Source of the DNA: Candidatus Daviesbacteria bacterium
GTDB taxonomy: Bacteria; Patescibacteriota; Microgenomatia; Daviesbacterales; UBA10151
Length of the DNA stretch: 64,000 bases
NCBI GenBank assembly: GCA_016176465.1
Contig: JACOXD010000004.1
Span: 50,119-114,118, forward strand
Direction: 5' to 3'
A program made the position numbers and the translations under genes. The stretch's first letter is position 1, and every line of letters begins with the position of its first letter. Positions 1,231 to 63,371 of this stretch are shown here, piece after piece. The notes under the pieces are model-generated. The model did no database searches and was not told the DNA's origin. It saw only the letters and a program-made list of their open reading frames with translations.

Positions 1231-1238
1231 TTAGGTTT

Positions 1239-1268
1239 TCCTTCTCCGCCAGCCGGCGGATCAGGACA
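1239..1268. repeat. Fragment of the MITE-like repeat family (tccttctccgccagcYggcggatcagga), near-identical to the copy at 40340-40368
   Basis: 28/30 nt identity with the internal module of the element at 40264-40372. Confidence 0.5.
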
Positions 1269-1271
1269 TAT

Positions 1272-1378
1272 CTTTCCCCTAAGGAAGCTGGCACCGCGGT
1301 CCGATATGACATCGGACTCGGTTGTCGGTCCGACATCAATCGGACGCTCTTGATAATTACTAGCTATTAAAACACAAA
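1272..1378 (-). promoter_or_regulatory. Candidate SAM-responsive riboswitch (S-box-like) in the metK leader
   Basis: Minus-strand leader contains UUAUCAAGAG (P1-like), AACC, GGUGCCAGCUUCC (cf. SAM-I GGUGCCAAUUCC) and GAAAGAUAUG (cf. GAAAGAUGAG), followed by a terminator; the K-turn GGAGGGA is not seen. Confidence 0.35.
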
Positions 1379-4364: not shown

Positions 4365-4427
4365 TGTCATTCTGAACCGTAGGCGAAGAATCTATATCAT
4401 GAGATCCTTCACTCCGTTCAGGATGAC
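4365..4427. repeat. MITE/REP-like nested palindrome element (tgtcattctga...gaagaatct...agatccttc...tcaggatgac)
   Basis: Outer inverted repeat gtcattctga/tcaggatgac and inner inverted repeat gaagaatct/agatccttc; lies between mltG and ruvX. Confidence 0.75.
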
Positions 4428-4440
4428 TCCCAAGACAGAG

Positions 4441-4828: not shown

Positions 4829-4904
4829 TGTCATTCTGATACGTAAGTGAAGAATCTAAAGAAAGATCCTTCTCCCCTCCGGGGGGCCCGCGCTCAGGAT
4901 GACA
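4829..4904. repeat. MITE/REP-like element with a GC-rich mini-hairpin insert (cccctccggggggcccgcg)
   Basis: Same terminal and inner inverted repeats as 4365-4427; begins 8 nt upstream of the ruvX start. Confidence 0.75.
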
Positions 4905-8016: not shown

Positions 8017-9915
8017 GTGAAATCATCTGATATTAGAAAAAAATATTTAGAATTTTTCCAAAAAAGAGGACATAAAATAATTCCCTCCTCTTCTTTAGTG
8101 CCGGAAAATGACCCGACTACTTTATTTACTGGTTCTGGAATGCAGCCGATGATTCCTTATCTTTTAGGAGAACCTCATCCAGAGGGAAAAAGAATAGTTG
8201 ATTCCCAAGTGGCTTTTAGATCCCAAGATATTGAAGAAGTAGGTGATAATCGTCATGACACTTTATTTGAGATGCTGGGTAATTGGAGCTTGGGAGACTA
8301 TTTCAAAAAAGAGCAACTAAGTTGGTATTTCGAATTTTTAACCAAGGAGTTAAACCTTGATCCAAGTAAAATTTACGTTAGTGTTTTTATTGGAGATGAA
8401 AAAAATAAACTTCCTAAAGATATTGAGTCAGCAAAGATCTGGAAGGAGCTTTTTTCCAAAAAAGGAATTGAAGCTAAAGATTTTGAATTTGGTTCAATGG
8501 AGGATGCTGCAAAAATGGGGATGAAAGATGTCAGAATTTTTTATTATGATGCTTTAAAAAATTGGTGGTCCAGAGTTGGTGAACCGGAAAACATGCCTGC
8601 TGGAGAACCGGGTGGTCCGGATTCTGAAGTATTTTATGATTTTGGTTTAGAGCATGATCCAAAGTATGGTAAATATTGCCATCCTAATTGTGACTGCTCT
8701 AGGTTTGTAGAAATTGGTAATTCGGTTTTTATGCAATATATCAAACAATCGGATGGAAGTTTTAAAGAATTACCTCATAAAAATGTTGACTTTGGAGGAG
8801 GATTGGAGCGAACTTTAATGGCTGTTAATAATGAACCAGATATGTTCAAAAACGATCTCCATTTTCCAATAATTGAAAAACTTATTAAAGATACAGGTAA
8901 TGAATATGGAAAAGATGCAAAAGCTACCTCAGCTTTTAGGATTGTTGCTGATCACTTAAAAGCGGCTACATTTTTAATAAAAAATGGCGTCACTCCATCT
9001 AACAAACAACAAGGCTATGTCTTAAGAAGATTGCTTCGAAGATCCGCTGTTAAATTATCTGATTATGACTTGGATTTTGTAGATACTTTGGCCAATCTTT
9101 CTGGAGTAGTTATTGATATCTATCAGGGGACTGATTATTTTGGCAAAGACGATAATGAAAATATTAAAAAAGTGATTATTGATGAGTTAGAAAAGTTTGA
9201 AAAAACAATCAAACATGGACTAAAAGAAATAGAGAAAATAGAGAAAATTACTGGCAAAGTTGCCTTTTACTTTTATCAGACTTTTGGTTTTCCCTTAGAG
9301 ATAACTGCAGAGGTAGCTAAAGAAAAAGGACAGGAAATTAATTTTAAAGAATTTGAAGAAGAGTATAAATTACATCAAGAATTATCTAGAACAACCTCAG
9401 CTGGTACTTTTAAAGGAGGTTTGGCAGATGCTAAAGAACAAACTACTAAACTCCATACCGCTAATCACTTAATGCAAGCTGCACTAAGACAAATTTTAGG
9501 AGAGCATGTTAGACAACACGGATCAAATATAACAGCCGAGAGACTAAGATATGATTTTTCTCATGATCAAAAATTAAGTGATGCGGAAATCAAAAAAGTT
9601 GAAAATTTAGTAAATGAACAAATCAAGAAAGATTTAAAAGTATGGTTTGATATTGAAGATAGAGACCAGGCAATTAAAGATGGCGCTTTAACGAATGTTG
9701 GCGAGAGCTATCCTGATAAGGCCAAAGTTTATAAAATTGGCACCCTGCCCAGTCATCCCGATGAGTCCACGATATCGGAATCTCTCTTCTCTAAAGAGCT
9801 CTGTGGCGGGCCACATGTGGAACATACAGGTGTAATTGGAAAATTTAAAATTCTAAAACAAGAGTCTTTAGGTGCAGGTTTAAAAAGAATTTATGCTACA
9901 ATTGACAAAATATAA
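8017..9915 (+). CDS. alaS: Alanyl-tRNA synthetase, short form lacking the C-Ala domain (GTG start)
   Basis: Class II AlaRS N-terminus; editing-domain HTANHLMQAAL (HxxxH) and CGGPHV; 632 aa. Confidence 0.9.
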   Translation: MKSSDIRKKYLEFFQKRGHKIIPSSSLVPENDPTTLFTGSGMQPMIPYLLGEPHPEGKRIVDSQVAFRSQDIEEVGDNRHDTLFEMLGNWSLGDYFKKEQLSWYFEFLTKELNLDPSKIYVSVFIGDEKNKLPKDIESAKIWKELFSKKGIEAKDFEFGSMEDAAKMGMKDVRIFYYDALKNWWSRVGEPENMPAGEPGGPDSEVFYDFGLEHDPKYGKYCHPNCDCSRFVEIGNSVFMQYIKQSDGSFKELPHKNVDFGGGLERTLMAVNNEPDMFKNDLHFPIIEKLIKDTGNEYGKDAKATSAFRIVADHLKAATFLIKNGVTPSNKQQGYVLRRLLRRSAVKLSDYDLDFVDTLANLSGVVIDIYQGTDYFGKDDNENIKKVIIDELEKFEKTIKHGLKEIEKIEKITGKVAFYFYQTFGFPLEITAEVAKEKGQEINFKEFEEEYKLHQELSRTTSAGTFKGGLADAKEQTTKLHTANHLMQAALRQILGEHVRQHGSNITAERLRYDFSHDQKLSDAEIKKVENLVNEQIKKDLKVWFDIEDRDQAIKDGALTNVGESYPDKAKVYKIGTLPSHPDESTISESLFSKELCGGPHVEHTGVIGKFKILKQESLGAGLKRIYATIDKI

Positions 9916-9937: not shown

Positions 9938-10189
9938 ATGAGTAATTATGTTACAACCAATATCAGACTTCCAGAAGAGGACTACTTAAGGCTTAAAGAA
10001 GAAGCTGCTAAAAATAGAAAAAGCCTATCAGCTGTTATTAGAGAGAAAATTAGTGGAAAAAAGCCAATTAAGGATTTTGCTAAGATGCTTTTAGAGTTAA
10101 ACACTGATTGGTTTACCGAAGAAGATTTTAAGACGTATAAGAAAAGCAGAAGGCAACTTAAGAAAAGAGTAAAATTATACGATTGGTAA
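9938..10189 (+). CDS. vapB: Ribbon-helix-helix (CopG/VapB-like) antitoxin
   Basis: N-terminal RHH TTNIRLPEEDYLRLKEEAAKNRKSLSAVIREKI; abuts the downstream PIN gene. Confidence 0.6.
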   Translation: MSNYVTTNIRLPEEDYLRLKEEAAKNRKSLSAVIREKISGKKPIKDFAKMLLELNTDWFTEEDFKTYKKSRRQLKKRVKLYDW

Positions 10190-10597
10190 ATGCAGATCCT
10201 GCTTGATACTTCAATCATTATTGATTATCTTCGTCAAAAAGATAAAAGTAAAACTCTACTTTACTTATTCGCTCATAGGCAATATAAACTTTATGTTTCT
10301 ATAGTCACTTATGCAGAAAGCTATGCTGGTAGAAGTATCTGGGAGAGAAAAGAAGCCATGAAGATCTTAGAAAATCTTTTTTCTTATATCAAGATTTTAC
10401 CTTTAGAAGAAAAAATCTCTAAAAAAGCAGGAAATATTAGCCATATAAACAATTTGGAAATTGTTGATGCCATAATTGCTGCAACAGCGCTGTCTCATAA
10501 GTTAAAGCTTGCTACATTAAATGTAAAAGATTTTAAAAAGATTAAAGGTTTAAAACTCTTTACACAAATTACATTAAAGTCCAAAGAAAAGGTGTAA
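10190..10597 (+). CDS. vapC: PIN-domain toxin VapC
   Basis: MQILLDTSIIIDYL (N-terminal Asp), DAIIAATAL, 135 aa PIN fold. Confidence 0.75.
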   Translation: MQILLDTSIIIDYLRQKDKSKTLLYLFAHRQYKLYVSIVTYAESYAGRSIWERKEAMKILENLFSYIKILPLEEKISKKAGNISHINNLEIVDAIIAATALSHKLKLATLNVKDFKKIKGLKLFTQITLKSKEKV

Positions 10598-10634
10598 ACC
10601 TAAATCACCCGGAGGGTGTTAAGAGGACTTCTTT

Positions 10635-10718
10635 ACAGGTGTAATTGGAAAATTTAAAATTATTAAACAGGAAACTTTGGGATCAGGACTTAGAAGAATC
10701 TATGCCAAGGTTTCGTGA
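10635..10718 (+). pseudogene. Orphaned duplicate of the alaS 3' end (last 28 codons), left downstream of the VapBC cassette
   Basis: 27 nt identical to alaS 9826-9852 (acaggtgtaattggaaaatttaaaatt), then a homologous in-frame tail TGVIGKFKIIKQETLGSGLRRIYAKVS*. Confidence 0.6.
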
Positions 10719-30374: not shown

Positions 30375-30500
30375 ACAGTAGACGATGGAGGATAGAAGAT
30401 AGAACTTTGAGGACAGAAGATAGAAATTAGAGTTTTACTATTCTACCTTCCATTTTCCATCTTCAAAACACTATCTTCCACATTCTATCATCTATTTATG
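30375..30500 (-). promoter_or_regulatory. Long imperfect hairpin in the pnp 5' leader (candidate RNase III/autoregulatory site)
   Basis: gatggaggatagaagatagaa...ggacagaagatagaaa facing inverted copies ttctaccttccattttccatcttc...ctatcttccacattctatcatc. Confidence 0.35.
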
Positions 30501-30563
30501 TCATTCTGAGTGAAGCAAAGAATCTCATCTCTAGATCCTTCGGGCTCTACCCTCAGGATGACA
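30499..30563. repeat. MITE/REP-like element between pnp and rpsO
   Basis: tgtcattctgag...aagaatctcatctctagatcctt...cctcaggatgaca. Confidence 0.75.
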
Positions 30564-34062: not shown

Positions 34063-35292
34063 CTACTCTTTTTTCTCTTCAGCACCGCTCTCTTTTTTTT
34101 CTTCCTCTTTAACAGCTTTATCTAATTTGTTAGTGGTTACATCATCTGTTGCTTGAGCCGAAGCACCAGCTTGAGTATCCTCTACCACATCTTTGTCTTC
34201 TTTTGTTCCTTCTTCCTTGCCCGCCGTAGCCTTGCTCGGTCTTCGAAGCTCCGGCGAAGGAGGCGCGGAGGCGGGTTTATCACCTTCTGCTTCCTTAACC
34301 GTACCATCTTCACTAACTTCTGCACTCTCCCCTGTTCCTTCAATATCTATTTTCCAACCTGTTAATTTAGCGGCTAATCTGACATTTTGTCCTCCCTTAC
34401 CAATAGCTAATGATAATTGATTATCAGGAATTTTAACCTTGGCAATTTTAGTTTCTTCATCCAAAAAAACTTGAATATCTTTGGCAGGCGATAGCGCTGC
34501 CACTATAAACCTGGCTGGATCATCAGAGTAAGAAACTATATCTATTTTTTCCTCACCCAATTCATTCATTACAGCCTGGACCCTAACTCCTTTTTGCCCA
34601 ACCAATGAACCTACAGGATCAACCCCTTCTTGAGAAGAAACAGCAGCTAACTTAGTTCTTCCTCCTGCTTCTCTGGCAATCTCTTTAATTTCAACTGCTC
34701 CTGATTGGATCTCCGGAACCTCTATAGCAAATAAACCCTTAACCAATCCTGCATCAGATCTTGAGACAATAATCTCCGGTCCTCTACCCGATTCTCTAAT
34801 CTCTTTGATATAAAATTTTAAGCGCTGGTTAGGCACGTAGGATTCATTTCTAGATTGCTCGGGAGGAGGCATTATCCCTTCCGCCCTACCTAAATCAATA
34901 AAATAAGTATTTCCTTCCTGGCGCTGGATCAAACCGGAAACTATCGCTCCTACTTTTTGTGCATACTCATCCATAATTGCTCCTTTTTCAGCTTCATTTA
35001 ATCTTTGGGTAATAACTTGTTTGGCTGTTTGAGCGGCAATTCTGGCAAATCCTGGAGGGGTGACATTTTTGTCACCACTATTGATAGTAATCTCACCACT
35101 TTGAGGATCAATTTTAGCCTCATATTCTTCAATATCCTCAGGAATAACTTCCCCTCTTAAAGATAAATCTTTACGATAAGCAGCCAGTGCAGCCTGTCTA
35201 ATAGCATCCAAAACTACATCAATCTCAACCCCTTTTTCCGAGGCTATTTGATTTATCGCTGCTGCAAATTCTGTTCGTGCCTGTATAGGCAT
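34063..35292 (-). CDS. nusA: Transcription termination/antitermination factor NusA with an acidic C-terminal tail
   Basis: NusA N-domain, S1, two KH domains. Confidence 0.88.
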   Translation of the reverse strand: MPIQARTEFAAAINQIASEKGVEIDVVLDAIRQAALAAYRKDLSLRGEVIPEDIEEYEAKIDPQSGEITINSGDKNVTPPGFARIAAQTAKQVITQRLNEAEKGAIMDEYAQKVGAIVSGLIQRQEGNTYFIDLGRAEGIMPPPEQSRNESYVPNQRLKFYIKEIRESGRGPEIIVSRSDAGLVKGLFAIEVPEIQSGAVEIKEIAREAGGRTKLAAVSSQEGVDPVGSLVGQKGVRVQAVMNELGEEKIDIVSYSDDPARFIVAALSPAKDIQVFLDEETKIAKVKIPDNQLSLAIGKGGQNVRLAAKLTGWKIDIEGTGESAEVSEDGTVKEAEGDKPASAPPSPELRRPSKATAGKEEGTKEDKDVVEDTQAGASAQATDDVTTNKLDKAVKEEEKKESGAEEKKE

Positions 35293-37848: not shown

Positions 37849-37960
37849 TGTCATTCTGATCCTGAGCGTAGCCGAAGGAGAAGAATCTCAAGATTAGATC
37901 CTTCTGGTTCAATAGACCATCAGGTCTTCGACCCTGAGGCTCAGACCCGAAGGGATGATA
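37849..37960. repeat. Composite MITE/REP-like element between dnaK and the downstream ORF
   Basis: tgtcattctga + tcctgagcgtagccgaagga + gaagaatct...agatccttc + GC-rich tail. Confidence 0.7.
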
Positions 37961-40263: not shown

Positions 40264-40372
40264 TGTCATTCTGAACTTGATTCAGAATCTTTTCTGTCAT
40301 TTCGATACGTAAGTGAGAAATCTCCAGACTAATCTTGAGATCCTTCTCCGCCAGCTGGCGGATCAGGATAAC
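40264..40372. repeat. Tandem (truncated plus full) MITE/REP-like element containing the ccgccagctggcgg mini-hairpin
   Basis: tgtcattctgaacttgattcagaatc followed by tgtcatttcgatacgtaagtgagaaatct...gatccttctccgccagctggcggatcaggataac. Confidence 0.7.
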
Positions 40373-40929
40373 AATTCCTTCCTCCCTACAACTACCTTTG
40401 CAGGTTTAATCACTTTTCCCCCTAAAGTATACCCTTTTTCTACAATTTCTAAAATAATATTATCATCACCATCTTTGGTGTCAACTGCTTCATGAAGGCT
40501 GGGATCAAACCGGGTACCACCCGTCCCGTGCGAAGACACGGGATCTATCTCAATCTCCTCCAACCCTTCATCAGCTAATACTGCTTGAAGCTGTTGTAAA
40601 GCTAACTCCACTCCCCTAAACCAACCTGATTCTCTATCTTCCTCTGATGCTCCTTTAATTGCTTTTTCAAAATGATCCAAAACAGGCAATATTTTAATAA
40701 TTAAATTAGCATTTGCCCAAGAACTTAATTCACCTCTTGCCTCTTGAATTCTTTTTTCTAAATTTTGATAATCAGCAACTGCTCTTTTGAGTTGATTTCT
40801 GATATCTTCATGATCTACCTTTACTCTTGCCAACTCCTCCTGTAGCTCTTGTACCTCTGCTTTTTTAGTAGCTTGAGAAATTACATCATCATGAGTATTA
40901 TTTTGATTATCTTCTTTTTGTTTTTTCAT
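40363..40929 (-). CDS. grpE: Nucleotide exchange factor GrpE
   Basis: Coiled-coil N-terminus and GrpE C-terminal domain (GYTLGGKVIKPAKVVV). Confidence 0.85.
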   Translation of the reverse strand: MKKQKEDNQNNTHDDVISQATKKAEVQELQEELARVKVDHEDIRNQLKRAVADYQNLEKRIQEARGELSSWANANLIIKILPVLDHFEKAIKGASEEDRESGWFRGVELALQQLQAVLADEGLEEIEIDPVSSHGTGGTRFDPSLHEAVDTKDGDDNIILEIVEKGYTLGGKVIKPAKVVVGRKELLS

Positions 40930-56640: not shown

Positions 56641-56798
56641 GCTTACGCCTGCTAAAGACAGTGAAGTCACGAGCTAGAAAAATGTAGTGCGTTTCGCTTA
56701 TGCCAAGTCAATGACCGTAGACCAGTCTGGTGCGAAACAAACTCCAAGCGAGACGCGTGGAAGGTCGAGCGGTTTTTTCAGCCGTGACGAACTAGTCT
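56641..56798. ncRNA. GC-rich, hairpin-rich intergenic block of unknown function (candidate small RNA or leader)
   Basis: About 50% GC against <35% flanks; nested inverted repeats gtttcgc...gcgaaac and ggtcgagcgg...ccgtgac; no ORF. Confidence 0.2.
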
Positions 56799-57400: not shown

Positions 57401-58132
57401 TTAAATGAAACCGTGCGCTGAAACTTGACCTCCCTGTTGAGAAGGCGCTTCCATTAAAACTGCTCGTACATGAGCCTCTACCAATTTAGACATAACCTCC
57501 CCATCTCCTTGATCCATAAAGTACTCCAATATAGTAAAGTAATTCTCCTGATCTGAATCGTCACCTGAGATAAATTGTTTAGCCCAGGCTATCGCCGCAA
57601 CTCTACGATGAGCTAGTTCTACTCTATCTGGTCCTTCGTAAATTTTTCTCACTTGCTCAAGGGGAATCAGTTTCTTATCGTCTTTTCCTAGAAGCAAGGA
57701 TCCGGCCAATTTAGCAAACCCATCACAGATTTCACCATGTAATTCTCCCATCCTTTCTTGAAGTGGAGTTCTTAACCCTGCTGCGGAAGTATAGAATGCC
57801 TCTGCCAATAACTCTAACTTCTCGCGCGTATTAGGAAGAGAATCCCAATCACTTCTAAAAAACGCCGGTACTCCAATTGAAAACCTCTGCGCTTCAGTAT
57901 AGGCCGGATCAGTTCTCACTCCTGCTAATCCACGAGCTGCCAAACTCATCGCTTCAGCCAAAGCTTCATTCCTATTCGGCGCCATCTCTCCATGTGGGCT
58001 AATCAACACATCTATTATTCCTCTTCCCACAACATACATCTCATGAGGCCTTAGAGAACCTGGATCTTGCTCGAATCTTGCTAATAAATCCGGACTTGCC
58101 ATAATTGCTGGGTAATATAAACCTATAGGCAT
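57401..58132 (-). CDS. Hypothetical protein, Ala/Arg/Gly-rich, higher GC (likely acquired)
   Basis: No motif recognised; composition differs from its neighbours. Confidence 0.35.
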   Translation of the reverse strand: MPIGLYYPAIMASPDLLARFEQDPGSLRPHEMYVVGRGIIDVLISPHGEMAPNRNEALAEAMSLAARGLAGVRTDPAYTEAQRFSIGVPAFFRSDWDSLPNTREKLELLAEAFYTSAAGLRTPLQERMGELHGEICDGFAKLAGSLLLGKDDKKLIPLEQVRKIYEGPDRVELAHRRVAAIAWAKQFISGDDSDQENYFTILEYFMDQGDGEVMSKLVEAHVRAVLMEAPSQQGGQVSAHGFI

Positions 58133-58192
58133 ATTTTGTCAAATTTTGTCAAAGAATTTTATTAGTGTTAAACTATGCACCATCACCGCTCC

Positions 58193-58256
58193 TGTCATTC
58201 TGAGGCGGAGCCGAAGAATCTAATCTAGATCCTTCACCAGAACGTTCAGGATGACA
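58193..58256. repeat. MITE/REP-like element immediately upstream of uvrD
   Basis: tgtcattctgaggcggagccgaagaatctaatctagatccttcaccagaacgttcaggatgacag. Confidence 0.75.
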
Positions 58257-58265
58257 GTAAACCAT

Positions 58266-60311
58266 ATGCCCAATAAGCTCCTAGATGATTTAAACCCTAT
58301 CCAACAACAAGCTGTTAAAGCAACTGAGGGCCCTAATTTGGTTTTAGCTGGAGCAGGATCAGGAAAAACAAGAGTACTAACCTACAAGGTTGCATATTTA
58401 ATTTCTGAAAAAAAAGTTCCTGCAGAAGACATAGTTTGTTATACATTTACTAATAAGGCCGCAGGGGAAATGCGAGACCGAATCCTTAAGCTTCTTCAAC
58501 TATACGCTAAACCCTACACCCTAAACGCTATTCCTTTAATGGGTACATTCCACTCTATCTGTGCCAAGATTTTAAGGAAAGAAGGATATAATATTGGGCT
58601 ATCCCCTGGCTTTTCTATTTATGATGAAGGGGATGCGCTAGATGCTGTTAAAGAAGCAATGAAGAATTTAAATCTAGCTACTCAAAAAATTAACCCTGGT
58701 GCTGTTAGGCATACAATTTCATCAGCTAAAAATGAACTAATTTCAGAGTTAGAATATCCCCAAATGATAAGGGGTTATTTTCAAGAAACTGTAGCTAAAG
58801 TTTATTTAGAATATCAAAAAATTTTAAGGCAAAACCAGGCTTTGGATTTTGATGATTTATTAATGAGCACTATTCAACTATTTCAAAGTAACCCTCCAGT
58901 ACTGGCGCGCTATCAAAACCAGTTTCAATATATTTTAGTAGATGAGTATCAAGATACTAATGCCGCTCAGTATCAGCTAATAAAACTTTTAGCTGCGAAA
59001 CACCGAAACATTTGTGTAGTTGGCGACTTCGCACAGGCGATATATAGCTTCAGAGGCGCTGATTATCGAAATATGCTTAGTTTCCAAAAAGATTATCCTG
59101 AGGCTAAGGTATTTAATTTAGAACAAAACTACCGCTCTACTCAAATTATTTTAGATGCAGCCCAAGCTGTAATCTCAGAAAATAAACTGCATCCTATTTT
59201 AAAGCTGTGGACTGATAAAAAAGGTGGCGTAAAAATTAAAATCTTCCAAGCCCGCTCTGAAGTTGAAGAAGCGTTATTTATAGTAGAACAAATACAAACT
59301 CTTACTAGAGCGAGGGGTGACGGCGAGCGGGGTGCCCCATTGAGTCCACGCAGTGAAACGAGGAGATCGAATGGGGCTGCAAGCCGGCAGAACCCGGAGC
59401 AAATGAGTCTATCGGATTTTGCAGTTTTATATCGTACTAATGCTCAATCCAGAGCGCTGGAAGAGGTTTTCCTAAAGTCAGGTATTCCTTATAAATTAGT
59501 AGGCGGGGTGCAATTTTATGAGCGAAAAGAGATTAAGGATGTTTTATCTTATTTAAAGCTATTGCAAAATCCTAAAGATTCTATAGCTATAAAAAGAATA
59601 GAAAAAATAGGTAAGCTTAGGGCTTCTAAATTTTTTGAATTTCAACAGGTCATCCTGAACCCTTCGCTACGCTCGAGGGTGAACTCCGTGAAGGATCCAG
59701 ATTCTTCTCAGGCGAAGCCTGATCAGAATGACAGTATTCCCTTTACCACCCTAGAACTTTTAGATCAAATTTTATCTTTAACCGGTTACTTAGCATATTT
59801 AGACGATGGGAGTGAACAAGGAAAAGTTAGGGTAGAAAACGTTAAAGAGTTACGCTCTGTTGCGGAAGAGTTTCCTAATTTAGTTTTATTTTTGGAAAAT
59901 GTAGCTTTAGTTCAAGAAAACCAGCTACCTGAAAGTAAAAGAAAAATGGATCAAGAAGCTGTTACTTTAATGACAATTCATGCCTCCAAAGGTTTGGAAT
60001 TTCCAGTTATATTTTTAACTGGAATGGAGGAAGGTTTATTCCCCCACTCCCGTTCTATGCTTGATCCCAGTGAAATGGAGGAAGAAAGACGTTTAGCTTA
60101 TGTAGGAATTACCAGAGCAAAAGATAAATTATTTTTAACTCATACCCGCTCAAGATTATATTTTGGAAGTAAAACAAATAGCATTGTCTCCCGTTTTATT
60201 ATGGCAATACCAGAAAAGCTACTGGATTTATCTGAAGGTTTCAGAGATTCTGATAGATTTGATGATGATATAACTCCTATTAATGATGAGGAAGAGTGGT
60301 TAAATGGATAA
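58266..60311 (+). CDS. uvrD: UvrD/PcrA-family DNA helicase carrying two in-frame insertions (start moved to MPNKLLDDLNPIQQQAV)
   Basis: GAGSGKT Walker A, DEYQDTN, YRSTQ, VLYRTNAQSR, MTIHASKGLEF, VGITRAK; the listed ATG at 58251 lies inside the repeat terminus tcaggATGACAG. Confidence 0.85.
   Translation: MPNKLLDDLNPIQQQAVKATEGPNLVLAGAGSGKTRVLTYKVAYLISEKKVPAEDIVCYTFTNKAAGEMRDRILKLLQLYAKPYTLNAIPLMGTFHSICAKILRKEGYNIGLSPGFSIYDEGDALDAVKEAMKNLNLATQKINPGAVRHTISSAKNELISELEYPQMIRGYFQETVAKVYLEYQKILRQNQALDFDDLLMSTIQLFQSNPPVLARYQNQFQYILVDEYQDTNAAQYQLIKLLAAKHRNICVVGDFAQAIYSFRGADYRNMLSFQKDYPEAKVFNLEQNYRSTQIILDAAQAVISENKLHPILKLWTDKKGGVKIKIFQARSEVEEALFIVEQIQTLTRARGDGERGAPLSPRSETRRSNGAASRQNPEQMSLSDFAVLYRTNAQSRALEEVFLKSGIPYKLVGGVQFYERKEIKDVLSYLKLLQNPKDSIAIKRIEKIGKLRASKFFEFQQVILNPSLRSRVNSVKDPDSSQAKPDQNDSIPFTTLELLDQILSLTGYLAYLDDGSEQGKVRVENVKELRSVAEEFPNLVLFLENVALVQENQLPESKRKMDQEAVTLMTIHASKGLEFPVIFLTGMEEGLFPHSRSMLDPSEMEEERRLAYVGITRAKDKLFLTHTRSRLYFGSKTNSIVSRFIMAIPEKLLDLSEGFRDSDRFDDDITPINDEEEWLNG
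59309..59403 (+). repeat. GC-rich structured insertion inside uvrD (in frame, ~32 codons)
   Basis: gagcgaggggtgacggcgagcggggtgccccattgag...tcgaatggggctgcaagccggcag; ~65% GC; encodes RARGDGERGAPLSPRSETRRSNGAASRQNPEQ, absent from canonical UvrD. Confidence 0.4.
59649..59734. repeat. MITE/REP-like element inserted in frame inside uvrD
   Basis: gtcatcctgaacccttcgctacgctcgagggtgaactccgtgaaggatccagattcttctcaggcgaagcctgatcagaatgacag; encodes VILNPSLRSRVNSVKDPDSSQAKPDQNDS. Confidence 0.7.
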
Positions 60312-61000: not shown

Positions 61001-61026
61001 CCATCCTGAGCGTAGTCGAAGGATAG
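61001..61026. repeat. Short fragment of the repeat family (atcctgagcgtagtcgaaggat)
   Basis: Matches the internal module tcctgagcgtagccgaagga of the element at 37849-37960. Confidence 0.5.
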
Positions 61027-61037
61027 ATATATATCTT

Positions 61038-61838
61038 TTATAAAAATTTAAATGTTTCAATTATCTTTTCATATATAGCTTTATTTTTATCAGGGTTTCC
61101 TGAAGTTTGAGCCGGATTTATAATGATCTCATAAATTTTATCTCCTTTTAATGCAACTATATTAGCTTCAACCCCTACTTGTCCCCCGCAACATCCATCT
61201 ATTCTTAATGCGTCTAGTCCTCCTAGTTTAGTATTCTTAATCTCTATATCTTTTAAGCTATCTTTACCATATTTTATAAATAAACCCTTCCCAAAATACT
61301 GTTCCAAATTTTCCCTTGTGTACCCTTCATTATTCTTTTTTATTCCTATCGATACTTGGTAAGTTACTGCTAGGGGCTTTTCTTCATTAAAAATGTCATT
61401 AGGCTCTAAATTAATAATGCCTGGCCAAGAGGCATTTATATTAGCTGGACCACTCCTTATTGAATATTTATCAAGTGGATACTCTATTTGATAAAACCTT
61501 GTTGCCTGATAAGTACTCCAATTTGTAGAATCAGATTTGCTATCTTCTAATTCTTTAAACTCATCCTCTAGTCTTTTCTGTTCCTCTTCACTAAGTTTTT
61601 GGGTAAAACTTCTTCCATCTTTAGTATTACACTGAGTAGGATAAGATTCCATCACTGGATAATATTTTGCACACTCTTCAAAAGAATTAATATTTTTAAT
61701 TCTTTGCTGCTGAAAATAGAAATATGTACCGTATACTAATCCTGCAAAAATCACTACAGCTAAAAGTATAACTACTAAAGAAAACCCTTTTGCATTAAGT
61801 TTTTTTGATTTCAAGTGGGATGGAGATAGTATGAACAT
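61038..61838 (-). CDS. Type IV pilin-like protein, paralog A (real start probably downstream of 61838)
   Basis: KGFSLVVILLAVVIFAGL prepilin-like N-terminus (no Glu5), Cys-rich C-terminus RIDGCCGG; the listed N-terminus overlaps the neighbouring ORF by 44 nt. Confidence 0.45.
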   Translation of the reverse strand: MFILSPSHLKSKKLNAKGFSLVVILLAVVIFAGLVYGTYFYFQQQRIKNINSFEECAKYYPVMESYPTQCNTKDGRSFTQKLSEEEQKRLEDEFKELEDSKSDSTNWSTYQATRFYQIEYPLDKYSIRSGPANINASWPGIINLEPNDIFNEEKPLAVTYQVSIGIKKNNEGYTRENLEQYFGKGLFIKYGKDSLKDIEIKNTKLGGLDALRIDGCCGGQVGVEANIVALKGDKIYEIIINPAQTSGNPDKNKAIYEKIIETFKFL

Positions 61839-62438: not shown

Positions 62439-63371
62439 CTAATCACAATAATGGTATTTTGTCCCTCTTGAACAACCCATGACAGCACAACTTTCACTTT
62501 TGCTCGTTTTTATATCCTCAGCTTTAATTTCATCTAAACTATCCCCCTTACTTTTGTATAAACATTGCGTCTCAGCTGGAACTCCTCCGCAACACCCGCA
62601 TCCACAAGCCGTATAACTATTAGCCTCTATATCTTCAGCAACATTCTGATCTAAAAATTTAAAAGTAGAGATAATTTTCTCGTATAACCCATTATCCTCT
62701 TTTGGCCACAAAAAAAGATTAGGTTCAATAGCGATCAAATATCTTGGATTGCTGGGGATAGAGATTAAGGTTTGTTGTTTTCCAGATGAAGTCACAACTG
62801 AGTAATATTCACCAAAAATATTACTAACTTTTTTTACTATTTCTTTCGGGGCATTAGGCAGACATGAACTGCCCATATTACATTGAGGATATTCTAATCC
62901 ATATTTTTTTGCTTCTTCCAAACTTGAGATATCAGCTGATTTAGCAATTACGGAAATTTTAATAGAATACGTTGGCGCTTCATTAACTCCAGCCTTAAAG
63001 GTATTCTCTGTTTGTTCACTATCAAATCTTATATTATCTGCGTCAGAATCATAAATATTCCAATTACTGGGATAGCTAATTCTATAGCTCCATTTATCAT
63101 TTGTATAAATTTTCCAATCAGATATATCAACAGGTGGTTTTAGTTTTTCCTGTTCCTCCTCACTTAACTGCTCAGTAAAACTTTTTCCATCTTTAGATTT
63201 GCACTGTCTGGGGTAACTCTCTAAAACAGGATTTCCTGCTTTAACGCACTCTTCAAAAGAATTTATATTTTTGATTTTTTGCTGCTGAAAATAAGAATAA
63301 GTTCCATAAGCTAAACCAGCAAGGATAAGTAAAGCTATTAGAACAATTACTAGCGAAAATCCTTTTTGCAT
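62439..63371 (-). CDS. Type IV pilin-like protein, paralog B (Cys-rich C-terminus)
   Basis: MQKGFSLVIVLIALLILAGLAYG prepilin-like N-terminus; C-terminal CGCGCCGG...CAVMGC...HYC. Confidence 0.45.
   Translation of the reverse strand: MQKGFSLVIVLIALLILAGLAYGTYSYFQQQKIKNINSFEECVKAGNPVLESYPRQCKSKDGKSFTEQLSEEEQEKLKPPVDISDWKIYTNDKWSYRISYPSNWNIYDSDADNIRFDSEQTENTFKAGVNEAPTYSIKISVIAKSADISSLEEAKKYGLEYPQCNMGSSCLPNAPKEIVKKVSNIFGEYYSVVTSSGKQQTLISIPSNPRYLIAIEPNLFLWPKEDNGLYEKIISTFKFLDQNVAEDIEANSYTACGCGCCGGVPAETQCLYKSKGDSLDEIKAEDIKTSKSESCAVMGCSRGTKYHYCD

What the first reader, a model, noticed from the sequence alone, without database searches (positions are those of the whole stretch)
59649..59734. Repeat element inserted in frame inside the uvrD/pcrA helicase, plus a second GC-rich in-frame insertion at 59309-59403
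An 86-nt copy of the palindromic element lies inside the helicase ORF and is read through as about 29 extra residues (VILNPSLRSRVNSVKDPDSSQAKPDQNDS) in the variable 2B-domain region. About 350 nt upstream, a ~95-nt segment of ~65% GC with its own hairpin (ccccattga...tcgaatgggg) adds ~32 residues. These lie between the IQTL segment and the conserved VLYRTNAQSR motif, a stretch that is only ~14 aa in E. coli UvrD. A third copy (58193-58256) supplies the annotated ATG of the gene; the native start is more likely MPNKLLDDLNPIQ at 58266. Tolerated in-frame MITE insertions in an essential repair helicase are unusual.
Basis: seen in the sequence. Interest (0 to 1): 0.6.

Follow-up and report, generated by a model that had tools for sequence, protein, structure and literature searches.

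The report
Palindromic repeats translated inside a helicase
Two different small palindromic "selfish" DNA repeats sit in frame in two loops of a UvrD/PcrA-type helicase gene of a Candidatus Daviesbacteria-like (CPR) genome; the same two loops carry such repeats in about a third of related helicases, which extends a phenomenon already described in Rickettsia and other bacteria.

Summary
The helicase gene (58266-60311, +) contains an 84-nt copy (59649-59732) of a repeat that has eight other copies in the window. It also contains a 64% GC palindrome of about 91-99 nt (59304/59310-59402). Both are read through in frame. The second segment is not a one-off: it belongs to a second repeat family. Relatives carry it at either or both of the same two helicase positions, and it lies in frame in GlmS, peptide deformylase, FolD and DUF2298 genes on other AT-rich metagenome contigs. 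Among 119 orthologs, insertions of 12 or more residues occur at only two internal positions (33 and 45 sequences). They come from several repeat families and are patchily distributed, and the window's three closest relatives lack both. A third copy (58193-58256) lies between a conserved promoter-like site and the true start (58266), and it supplies the upstream in-frame ATG. The first family fits the published CGTC/TGTC-tagged REP dimers, which include Rickettsia RPE-4 and RPE-6 and are already reported inside DNA-repair genes, UvrD among them. The kind is therefore known. New here are the CPR host, the GC-rich family and the recurrent two-loop hot spot. Mechanism of mobility and any effect on the enzyme remain inferred.

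The parts
58266..60311 (+). UvrD/PcrA-type SF1 helicase gene, 681 aa from the homology-supported start
   Evidence: The best hits are Candidatus Daviesbacteria UvrD-helicase proteins. phmmer against PcrA 1PJR gives E = 1.6e-156. Motifs GSGKT, DEYQDTN, YRTNAQSR and VGITRA are invariant across 33 sequences.
59649..59732 (-). Type-A repeat: an inverted dimer of TGTC-tagged REP-like units, opposite in orientation to the other window copies. It is translated in frame as VILNPSLRSRVNSVKDPDSSQAKPDQND (residues 462-489).
   Evidence: Exact match to the composite pattern (alignment A3). Length 84 nt, divisible by 3, with one open frame of six. Absent from the closest orthologs. In the AF2 model residues 466-475 form a helix, followed by coil with pLDDT below 50 at 475-487.
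59304..59402 (+). Type-B GC-rich palindromic repeat (core about 59310/59312-59402), translated in frame as TRARGDGERGAPLSPRSETRRSNGAASRQNPEQ (residues 347-379), immediately before helicase motif IV
   Evidence: 64% GC. Absent from L081 and L083 but present in L082 (alignment A2). Homologous copies lie at the other helicase site in L082 and in L008/L087, and in unrelated genes. The hairpin covaries. pLDDT is below 50 and there is no secondary structure at residues 351-377.
58193..58256 (+). Type-A repeat copy in the 5' leader of the helicase gene. Its right terminus holds ATG 58251, which is in frame with the gene.
   Evidence: Orthologs start at the position of 58266. L009 carries a related element at the same place.
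58146..58174 (+). Promoter-like site TTGTCA-17-TAAACT with a TG-extended -10. The block TGTTAAACTA is conserved 8-14 nt upstream of the start codon in most orthologous loci.
   Evidence: Consensus scan and upstream sequences of L003, L010, L011, L012 and L082. Promoter function is inferred, not shown.
4365..4428 (+). Intergenic type-A copy (62-nt core)
4829..4904 (+). Intergenic type-A copy (74-nt core)
30499..30563 (+). Intergenic type-A copy (63-nt core)
37849..37921 (+). Intergenic type-A copy with a degenerate right end
40264..40292 (+). Single canonical unit of the family: TGTC ATTCTGAA CTTGA TTCAGAAT CTT (tag, 8-bp stem beginning A-T/T-A, 5-nt loop, 3-nt tail)
   Evidence: The features match those listed for CGTC REPs in PMC3733652.
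40295..40372 (+). Divergent type-A dimer whose right end overlaps the last codons of grpE
61002..61025 (+). Lone half-unit (CATCCTGAGCGTAGTCGAAGGATA) between the G5/3D gene and the next gene

Best explanation
The helicase gene has been colonised three times by small non-autonomous palindromic repeats.

- Type A is an inverted dimer of TGTC-tagged stem-loop units (REP-like). One copy sits in the 5' leader and one in the coding region.
- Type B is a GC-rich long hairpin of about 91-100 nt. One copy sits in the coding region.

Both coding copies survive for three reasons: their length keeps the reading frame, the frame in use has no stop codon, and they fall in two loops that tolerate extra hydrophilic, probably disordered, residues. 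One loop lies just before motif IV. The other lies in the shortened region that aligns to PcrA 420-479, at about the 2A/2B junction. The copies are transcribed and translated as part of the protein. They are best seen as selfish DNA filtered by selection, not as functional modules.

Shown: repeat identity, presence/absence polymorphism, in-frame state, the two-site restriction, and hairpin covariation.

Inferred: translation of the inserts, surface location, neutrality, and the means of mobility. The most likely means is a hairpin-recognising enzyme acting in trans, possibly a Y1/HUH transposase. None is encoded in the window.
For: Repeat identity:
- Type A: 5 exact composite-pattern matches against 0 in shuffles; 9 copies or partial copies in the window.
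- Type B: L082 carries two near-identical copies, at both helicase sites. L008/L087 carry it at site 2. A pattern scan found 23 metagenome loci. Copies lie in frame in genes confirmed by Pfam as GlmS, peptide deformylase, FolD and DUF2298.
- Type A is also in frame at both helicase sites and in a FemAB-family ORF in L114 (the ORF checked).

Polymorphism:
- The three closest orthologs by core identity (78-79%: P0008, P0002, P0010) have neither insert; for P0002 and P0010 this was also checked on DNA (L081, L083).
- Sister taxa differ in state.

Site restriction: among 119 orthologs, insertions of 12 or more residues occur at only two internal positions (33 and 45 sequences), against baseline loops of 6 and 14 residues.

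Selection filter:
- All type-A copies measured inside genes are multiples of 3 nt long (84, 81, 87, 75, 87, 96 nt). The nested L009 copy is 87 or 114 nt depending on which 5' end is taken, both multiples of 3.
- Intergenic copies are 62, 62, 74, 63, 80, 80, 87 and 78 nt and usually contain stops.
- Eight of nine window copies lie in the 7.4% of the window that is non-coding.

Structure of the element: the type-B hairpin is 96.5% paired, 8 of 23 pairs show compensatory changes, and slid controls give 29-48%.

Protein context:
- Both inserts are low-confidence or coil in the AF2 model and are flanked by confident elements.
- Site 1 is 35 residues where PcrA has 7. Site 2 lies in a stretch where the CPR protein is otherwise shorter than PcrA.
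- All helicase motifs are intact.

Precedent: PMC3733652 and PMC10969869.
Against: - No expression, proteomic or biochemical data exist, so translation of the inserts and activity of the enzyme are assumed.
- No target-site duplication is visible, and no cognate transposase was found in the window. Mobility is therefore inferred from distribution alone.
- The AF2 model is only moderate (pLDDT 71, pTM 0.62), so 'surface loop' rests on low confidence plus the sequence mapping to PcrA.
- Restriction to exactly two sites, with a nearly fixed 5' junction at site 2 across different subfamilies, is tighter than a passive tolerance filter would obviously predict. Other length-variable loops of the protein are not colonised.
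- The window holds only one type-B copy.
Confidence: 0.8

Rival explanations
1. The two loops are actively targeted. The repeats integrate at (or replace) pre-existing hairpin or repeat sequences, a 'landing pad' or gene-conversion model. Once a loop holds one element it keeps acquiring others. Passive tolerance alone does not explain the hot spots.
For: - Only two internal sites are hit in 119 orthologs, although other loops vary in length.
- The 5' junction at site 2 is almost fixed ('E[LF]xx|VI...') for the ATTCTGA, ATTGCGA and ATTCCCG subfamilies.
- In most of the genomes examined on DNA, both sites hold the same broad type: L082 B/B, L115 B/B, L114 A/A. The window (B/A) and L002 (B/A) are mixed.
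- Nested or tandem partial copies occur at site 2 (L009; P0070 and P0003).
- Insert-bearing loops have lost about 5-6 native residues compared with insert-less ones.
Against: - The same families also occur in many unrelated intergenic and genic places.
- No conserved target sequence or duplication is seen at the junctions.
- Fixed junctions can also arise from selection on which register keeps the flanking helices intact, and partly from alignment.
Confidence: 0.25
2. The inserts have been co-opted. The extra loops change helicase behaviour, for example by acting on the regulatory 2B domain or by producing a weak mutator phenotype. Alternatively the mRNA hairpins regulate expression.
For: - Di Nocera et al. 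noted an excess of REP insertions in replication and repair genes, UvrD/Rep included, and speculated about mutator effects (PMC3733652).
- Site 2 is at the hinge of the 2B domain, which is autoinhibitory in Rep/UvrD/PcrA (established knowledge of the family).
- A repeat also sits in the leader, between the promoter-like site and the start codon.
Against: - The insert sequences are not conserved as peptides. Different families, frames and lengths occupy the same sites, and many orthologs have none. A required function would not look like this.
- Covariation preserves the nucleic-acid hairpin, not the peptide.
Confidence: 0.1
3. The segments are ordinary lineage-specific loop expansions or low-complexity drift, not mobile DNA.
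For: The region aligned to PcrA 420-479, which includes part of the 2B domain, differs in length between the solved UvrD/PcrA/Rep-type helicases and this protein.
Against: - There is DNA-level homology to intergenic copies and to copies in unrelated genes.
- The GC content is 54-64% in a gene that is otherwise 35%.
- The segments are absent from the closest relatives.
Confidence: 0.03
4. The segments are removed after transcription or translation (intron-like or intein-like), or they are assembly artefacts.
For: Some orthologs do carry real inteins (P0102 and P0118 have Pfam PF14890 and PF14528). Palindromes can also cause misassembly.
Against: - At 28-33 residues the inserts are far too short for an intein.
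- If the segments were excised there would be no need for frame preservation or freedom from stops, yet every genic copy examined has both.
- Independent assemblies from different samples show homologous inserts at the same codons.
Confidence: 0.03

Closest known systems
CGTC/TGTC-tagged REP repeats (Di Nocera, De Gregorio and Rocco 2013, BMC Genomics 14:522; PMC3733652). The group includes Rickettsia RPE-4 and RPE-6 and Neisseria dRS3.
   Same: - The terminal tag is TGTC.
- Stems begin with A-T and T-A pairs. The canonical unit at 40264-40292 has an 8-bp stem, a 5-nt loop and a 3-nt tail.
- Units are arranged mostly as inverted dimers.
- No adjacent transposase.
- Intragenic dimers encode 20-30 residues.
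- Repair genes, including UvrD/Rep helicases, are among the reported hosts.
- The peptide 'VIPAKAGI' listed for R. conorii copies recurs in orthologs P0003 and P0006.
   Different: - The host is a CPR (Daviesbacteria-like) genome, a group not among the phyla named in the passages of that paper that I read.
- The ATTCTGA/ATCCTGA stem variant ('VILSEAKDL') does not occur in the paper's supplementary table.
- The helicase copy has expanded loops (15 and 33 nt).
- The paper found that REPs in orthologous genes are mostly at different sites. Here two sites are hit again and again.
Rickettsia palindromic elements, RPE-1 type (Ogata et al. 2000, Science 290:347; summarised in PMC10969869)
   Same: Palindromic repeats of about 100-150 bp are inserted in frame in many unrelated housekeeping genes as well as in intergenic DNA. 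They are thought to be compatible with protein folding and function. Type B behaves this way, occurring in a helicase, GlmS, Def, FolD and DUF2298.
   Different: - Homology to the RPE families was not tested, because no RPE sequences were at hand.
- Type B is a GC-rich element in an AT-rich free-living or episymbiotic CPR genome.
- Several families share the same two loops of one protein.
- Rickettsia is an obligate intracellular alphaproteobacterium.
REPINs and RAYTs (GTAG-tagged REP doublets mobilised by a Y1 transposase; PMC3116915, PMC2817692)
   Same: The architecture is an inverted doublet of tagged stem-loops. A hairpin-recognising HUH/Y1 enzyme is a plausible mobilising agent. A Y1_Tnp gene exists in a relative, right beside the helicase (L002).
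   Different: - The tag is TGTC, not GTAG.
- No RAYT is encoded in the window.
- The L002 gene looks like an ordinary IS200-type element, and its end hairpins are unrelated to types A and B.
- REPINs are described as extragenic.
TIR repeats flanking TIRYT tyrosine-transposase genes (motif GGGGWSAS; PMC3733652)
   Same: The 5' end of type B, GGGGTGAC, fits GGGGWSAS, and the element is a long self-complementary repeat.
   Different: The match is to an 8-nt degenerate motif only. The common GGGGTGGC variant breaks it. No TIRYT gene was found next to any held copy. This is a lead, not a membership.
Classical bacterial MITEs (Correia, Nezha, Coxiella QMITE)
   Same: Small, non-coding, multi-copy elements with terminal inverted repeats, occasionally forming in-frame fusions with host ORFs (PMC10969869, PMC5896051).
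   Different: No target-site duplication is visible, and no parent insertion sequence with the same ends was identified.

Membership tests
UvrD/PcrA/Rep (SF1A) helicase | UvrD-helicase and UvrD_C domains, and full-length similarity to solved PcrA/UvrD structures | tested here: met
   Orthologs carry PF00580, PF13361 and PF13245. phmmer gives E = 1.6e-156 against PcrA 1PJR and 8.8e-112 against UvrD 2IS1.
UvrD/PcrA/Rep (SF1A) helicase | Conserved helicase motifs intact (I GSGKT, II DEYQDTN, IV YRTNAQSR, VI VGITRA) | tested here: met
   These are invariant columns in alignment A1 of 33 sequences, the window protein included.
CGTC/TGTC-tagged REP (PMC3733652) | Stem-loop unit tagged at one end by CGTC (often TGTC or CCTC) | tested here: met
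   TGTCAT... is invariant at the left end of all 7 aligned window copies (A3). The helicase copy has TGTC at one end and GGTC at the other.
CGTC/TGTC-tagged REP (PMC3733652) | Stem of 8-9 bp starting with two A/T pairs, loop of 4-5 nt, 3-nt tail | tested here: inconclusive
   The single unit at 40264-40292 meets this (ATTCTGAA/CTTGA/TTCAGAAT/CTT). The units of copy 58193-58256 meet it if tandem G-A mismatches are allowed. The helicase copy keeps the 5-bp ATTCT/AGAAT and ATCCT/AGGAT stems, but its loops are expanded to 15 and 33 nt.
CGTC/TGTC-tagged REP (PMC3733652) | Units mostly paired as inverted dimers; no dedicated transposase next to them | tested here: met
   Six of nine window copies are inverted dimers. 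No transposase family was found in about 66 window ORFs.
CGTC/TGTC-tagged REP (PMC3733652) | Sequence match to one of the four published CGTC family consensuses | not testable with these tools
   The consensuses are in a figure that is not held. Indirect support: the peptides VIPAKAGI and SFPRKRES in the paper's Additional file 3 match insert peptides of orthologs P0003 and P0006. They do not match the window's own copy.
Rickettsia palindromic elements (RPE-1 type) | Palindromic repeat inserted in frame in several unrelated protein-coding genes | tested here: met
   Type B lies in a helicase, GlmS, Def, FolD and DUF2298. Type A lies in a helicase and a FemAB-family ORF. Hairpin covariation is shown.
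Rickettsia palindromic elements (RPE-1 type) | Sequence homology to RPE families, and a host in the genus Rickettsia | not tested
   No RPE sequences were available for comparison. The host here is Daviesbacteria-like, so this is filed as 'works like', not 'is'.
Classical MITE | Terminal inverted repeats, small size, no coding capacity, many copies | tested here: met
   GTCATYCTGA/TCAGRATGAC termini with 1-2 mismatches, 62-87 nt long, 9 copies in 64 kb.
Classical MITE | Target-site duplication, and a parent IS with the same ends | tested here: inconclusive
   No direct repeat is evident at the junctions examined by eye (sequences). No IS is present in the window. A whole genome was not available.
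REPIN/RAYT system | GTAG tag on each REP, and a RAYT gene flanked by the same REPs | tested here: not met
   The tag is TGTC. There is no Y1_Tnp in the window. The only Y1_Tnp in the held loci (L002) is flanked by unrelated hairpins.
Intein | Splicing domain of 130 or more residues with conserved N- and C-terminal blocks | tested here: not met
   The inserts are 28 and 33 residues. Inteins do occur in other orthologs (P0102 and P0118; PF14890 and PF14528), but not in this protein.

The most novel reading that the evidence does not exclude
The two helicase loops may be genuine integration hot spots, where hairpin-directed or element-directed insertion and replacement take place, and they may be shared by at least five palindromic repeat families across a candidate phylum. 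If so, CPR genomes would harbour a so far undescribed, RPE-like, multi-family colonisation of essential genes (helicase, GlmS, Def, FolD, FemAB, and possibly GrpE and NusA), with a site-choice rule that could be worked out from sequence. A further possibility is that turnover of these loops alters the regulation of the repair helicase.
Probability: 0.18. Interest if true: 0.7.

Novelty: new member of a known kind. Interest (0 to 1): 0.45.

Why it matters
The finding shows that the 'selfish DNA inside protein-coding genes' phenomenon, known best from Rickettsia, also operates in the streamlined genomes of the Candidate Phyla Radiation, where it hits core genes.

It has three practical consequences:
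- These repeats inflate and diversify predicted CPR proteins.
- They create false start codons.
- They can mislead homology-based domain boundaries and alignments.

It also offers a natural experiment. More than 100 orthologs carry or lack inserts of several families at the same two codons. This can be used to ask what makes a protein loop permissive and whether such repeats choose their targets. The GC-rich family is also a handy marker for tracking recent repeat activity in AT-rich CPR genomes.

Tried and rejected
- **Rfam:** a gathering-threshold scan of the whole window gave no hit, so neither repeat is a curated RNA family.
- **Full-text literature search** for the repeat sequences and peptides (GTCATTCTGAG..., VILSEAKDL, IASEAKQS): nothing relevant.
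- **Literature searches** combining CPR or Patescibacteria with MITE, palindromic or in-frame terms: nothing on this topic.
- **Type-B pattern in IMG/VR viral contigs:** no match. The type-A pattern matched 7 viral contigs. The element was delimited in six of them; five are clearly intergenic and one (L109) lies in a 105-aa open frame that is probably spurious. Their 42-57% GC shows the family is not confined to CPR, but they give no clue to the mobilising enzyme.
- **Transposase in the window:** about 66 ORFs were scanned against Pfam, and the unassigned ones also against NCBIfam and PHROGs. None was found.
Its terminal hairpins do not resemble types A or B, so it was rejected as the evident parent element.
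- **Target-site duplications:** none found by inspection of the junctions.
- **ORF 57401-58132 as a possible mobile-element gene:** no family hit, and no similarity to the unknown ORF at the same place in L114.
- **'Footprint' idea:** I wondered whether the insert-less 14-residue loop ('..EVSLQLDK..') is a remnant of an excised element. The DNA of L007 shows no GTC...GAC remnant, so the idea was dropped.
Full report
**What is in the sequence.** The window is AT-rich (35.8% GC). Its ORFs are typical of a small CPR genome. The ORF 58251..60311 (+) encodes a UvrD/PcrA-type helicase. Its best database relatives are Candidatus Daviesbacteria and Microgenomates proteins at 62-78% identity. It matches PcrA (1PJR) at E = 1.6e-156. 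All helicase motifs are intact.

**The 84-nt repeat (type A).**
- Positions 59649-59732 read GTCATCCTGA...GAAGGATC-CA-GATTCTTC...TCAGAATGAC.
- On the minus strand this matches exactly the composite pattern GTCATTCTGA-N(8-24)-GAAGAATCT-N(1-14)-GATCCTTC. Four intergenic copies share the pattern. No match occurred in 100 shuffles.
- Alignment A3 shows conserved blocks (TGTCATTCTGA, GAAGAATCT, GATCCTTC, TCAGGATGAC) separated by variable loops.
- In all, nine copies or partial copies lie in the window. Eight of them fall in the 7.4% of the window that is non-coding.
- The helicase copy is 84 nt (28 codons). Only one of its six frames is open, and that frame is the one in use.
- The clean intergenic copies in the window are 62, 62, 74 and 63 nt and mostly carry stops.

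**The GC-rich insert (type B).**
- Positions 59304-59402 are 64% GC against 35% for the rest of the gene.
- They fold into a long hairpin (z = -2.9).
- They add 32-33 codons compared with the closest insert-less orthologs (alignment A2).
- Relatives settle the matter. The contig encoding P0001 (L082) carries two near-identical copies inside its helicase gene. One is at the window's position and one is at the position where the window has type A. L008 and L087 carry it at the second position.
- A pattern built from its 5' arm found 23 further loci in metagenome contigs of 35-46% GC. In these, copies lie either in short non-coding stretches or in frame inside long ORFs.
- Pfam identifies those ORFs as GlmS, peptide deformylase, FolD and a DUF2298 membrane protein.
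- Twenty copies align with 96.5% of hairpin positions paired. Eight of 23 pairs show compensatory changes, and slid controls give 29-48%. The nucleic-acid palindrome is therefore what is conserved, not a peptide.

**The start codon.**
- The third copy is TGTCAT...ATGACA at 58193-58256. ATG 58251 lies in its right terminus and happens to be in frame.
- Nearly all of the aligned orthologs begin MP(N/S/K)xLLxDLNP at the position of 58266; a few carry called N-terminal extensions.
- Most orthologous loci have a conserved TGTTAAACTA block 8-14 nt upstream of the start. In the window this block is the TG-extended -10 of a TTGTCA-17-TAAACT promoter-like site at 58146-58174.
- In the window, and independently in L009, a repeat has landed between this block and the start codon. 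Which ATG the ribosome uses cannot be decided here.

**The wider pattern.**
- I aligned 119 orthologs. The baseline loops are 6 residues at site 1, before 'LSDFAILYRTNAQSR', and 14 residues at site 2, before 'TLELLD'.
- Insertions of 12 or more residues occur at only two internal positions: site 1 in 33 sequences and site 2 in 45.
- The only other regions with such length differences are the N-terminus (7 sequences; at least one extension, in P0036, reads through an upstream repeat, so some starts are probably miscalled) and the C-terminal tail (10 sequences).
- The inserted peptides carry the signatures of several palindromic families:
  - VILSEAKDL...QNDK;
  - VIASEAKQS...PRNDG;
  - VIPAKAGIQ;
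  - a form read in another frame, SLRGASEASDVAI...GLGMT;
  - the GC-rich RGDxEEGSRR...RRDTELAGP and RGGDKRGAPSSARSE...SRQDPEQ.
- DNA from L002, L009, L114 and L115 confirms that these peptides are translated repeat copies.
- L114 has type A at both sites and a further in-frame copy in a FemAB-family ORF. L115 has one GC-rich subfamily at both sites.
- All genic type-A copies measured are multiples of three in length (84, 81, 87, 75, 87 and 96 nt).
- The distribution on a core-alignment tree is patchy and sister taxa differ in state. The window's three nearest relatives by core identity (P0008, P0002, P0010; 78-79%) have neither insert.
- Independent assemblies from many samples show the same thing, which rules out an assembly artefact.

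**Where the inserts sit in the protein.**
- Sequence mapping to PcrA puts site 1 between PcrA residues 343 and 351: 35 residues where PcrA has 7, just before motif IV.
- Site 2 falls between PcrA residues 419 and 480. In this region the CPR protein, even with its 28-residue insert, is shorter than PcrA.
- By published PcrA domain limits (my own knowledge) site 2 is the 2A/2B junction and the start of 2B.
- The AlphaFold model (pLDDT 71, pTM 0.62) gives pLDDT below 50 and no secondary structure for residues 351-377. For the second insert it gives a short helix followed by low-confidence coil. Both inserts are flanked by confident elements.
- Exposure on the surface is inferred, not shown.

**How it most likely works.** The simplest reading is that these are non-autonomous palindromic repeats spreading within CPR genomes. 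Copies that land in genes are nearly always lost. The survivors keep the frame, lack stops in the frame used, and lie in loops that accept hydrophilic, disordered extra residues. This explains:
- the intergenic bias;
- the multiple-of-three rule;
- the single open frame;
- the absence of peptide conservation;
- the patchy phylogeny.

It does not fully explain why only two loops are used, nor why the 5' junction at site 2 is nearly fixed for different subfamilies. Some form of targeting, or replacement at an already occupied site, remains a serious partial rival (about 0.25). Nested or tandem partial copies at site 2 (L009, P0070, P0003) fit that idea.

The mobilising enzyme is unknown. No transposase is encoded in the window. 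A relative (L002) has an IS200-type Y1 transposase in the thioredoxin-helicase spacer (PF01797, 2.6e-34), but its end hairpins are unrelated to types A and B.

**Comparison with what is known.**
- Di Nocera and co-workers (PMC3733652) defined CGTC-tagged REPs as follows:
  - a tag that is often TGTC;
  - stems of 8-9 bp beginning with A/T pairs;
  - loops of 4-5 nt and a 3-nt tail;
  - units mostly arranged as inverted dimers;
  - no dedicated transposase;
  - Rickettsia RPE-4 and RPE-6 among the members.
- They listed intragenic dimers encoding 20-30 residues and noted an excess in replication and repair genes, UvrD/Rep helicases included.
- Type A fits this description. The single unit at 40264-40292 is a textbook example (TGTC ATTCTGAA CTTGA TTCAGAAT CTT). 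The 'VIPAKAGI' peptides in their table recur in our orthologs.
- I therefore file type A as a TGTC-tagged REP dimer. One reservation: the helicase copy has expanded loops, and the published consensuses could not be compared directly.
- Type B works like the RPE-1 class of Rickettsia (in-frame palindromes in unrelated housekeeping genes; PMC10969869), but I have no evidence that it is related to them.
- Its GGGGTGAC terminus fits the GGGGWSAS motif of repeats that flank TIRYT transposase genes. This is only a lead.

**Novelty and verdict.** The kind of event is known, so this is a new member of a known kind. Three things go beyond the literature I could search:
- the CPR host;
- the GC-rich family with its range of essential host genes;
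- the recurrent use of the same two helicase loops by several families in roughly a third of orthologs. The 2013 survey found REPs in orthologous genes mostly at different sites.

'Unusual' should be read as 'uncommon in general, already documented elsewhere, and frequent in this lineage'.

- Interest: 0.45.
- Most novel reading not excluded: true hot-spot targeting within a CPR-wide colonisation of core genes, with probability about 0.18 and interest 0.7 if true.

Noticed in passing
window 58146-58266; L003, L010, L011, L012, L082 and L009 upstream regions: A conserved TGTTAAACTA block, the TG-extended -10 of a TTGTCA-17-TAAACT site, lies only 8-14 nt upstream of the helicase start codon in most orthologous loci. 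This suggests a leaderless or very short-leader mRNA. In the window and in L009 a palindromic repeat is inserted between this block and the start, lengthening the leader to about 90 nt.
   Followed up: partly
window 57401-58132 (-); L081-L083, L115, L114, L002: A 243-aa ORF of 45-51% GC with no Pfam, NCBIfam or PHROGs family lies between the thioredoxin and helicase genes. These two genes are adjacent in L081, L082, L083 and L115. In the same spacer L114 has an unrelated 313-aa unknown ORF and L002 has an IS200-like Y1 transposase. This spacer is therefore itself an insertion hot spot.
   Followed up: partly
window 40510-40545 (-), inside grpE 40363-40929: GrpE has 8 extra residues (DPVSSHGT) compared with the two best-matching solved GrpE structures (4ANI, 3A6M). 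They are encoded by a GC-rich hairpin, GATCCCGTGTCTTCGCACGGGAC, flanked by GATCCC direct repeats. This looks like a further small in-frame palindromic insert.
   Followed up: partly
window 34197-34311 (-), C-terminal tail of nusA 34063-35292: A 72% GC palindromic stretch (..CCTTGCCCGCCGTAGCCTTGC..GCGGAGGCGGG..) is read in frame as ..PSKATAGKEEG.. in the tail of NusA, after the KH domains. It is probably another repeat family translated in frame.
   Followed up: no
window 1237-1353 and 40341-40368: An intergenic cluster of GC-rich hairpins lies downstream of the S-adenosylmethionine synthetase gene. The 28-nt block TCCTTCTCCGCCAGCCGGCGGATCAGGA recurs at 96% identity as the right half of the type-A dimer next to grpE.
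   Followed up: no
window 9825-9896 and 10634-10705: The last ~72 nt of the long ORF 8017-9915 (which looks like an alanyl-tRNA synthetase from its N-terminal sequence, not checked) are repeated at 82% identity just after a two-gene cassette (83-aa ORF plus PIN-domain protein, 9938-10597). It looks as if a toxin-antitoxin cassette inserted at the 3' end of the gene and brought or duplicated that end.
   Followed up: no
window 61038-61838 (-) and 62439-63371 (-): Two paralogous ORFs of unknown function have similar N-terminal membrane anchors (DNA repeats D1 and D5, 73-78% identity). A DUF2283 gene and a small ORF lie between them. No family was assigned.
   Followed up: no
proteins P0102 and P0118 (orthologs of the helicase): Two orthologs are over 1000 aa long and carry intein and homing-endonuclease domains (PF14890, PF14528). 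This helicase is therefore also a host for true inteins in some Daviesbacteria.
   Followed up: no
window 56712-56774: A 60% GC island lies in the spacer between the triosephosphate isomerase and methyltransferase-like (DNA_binding_1) genes. It has no Rfam hit and no similarity to types A or B.
   Followed up: no
L115 3124-4514: A relative's locus carries a reverse transcriptase (RVT_1) next to a bAvd gene, the hallmark pair of a diversity-generating retroelement, about 6 kb upstream of its helicase. There is no counterpart in the window.
   Followed up: no
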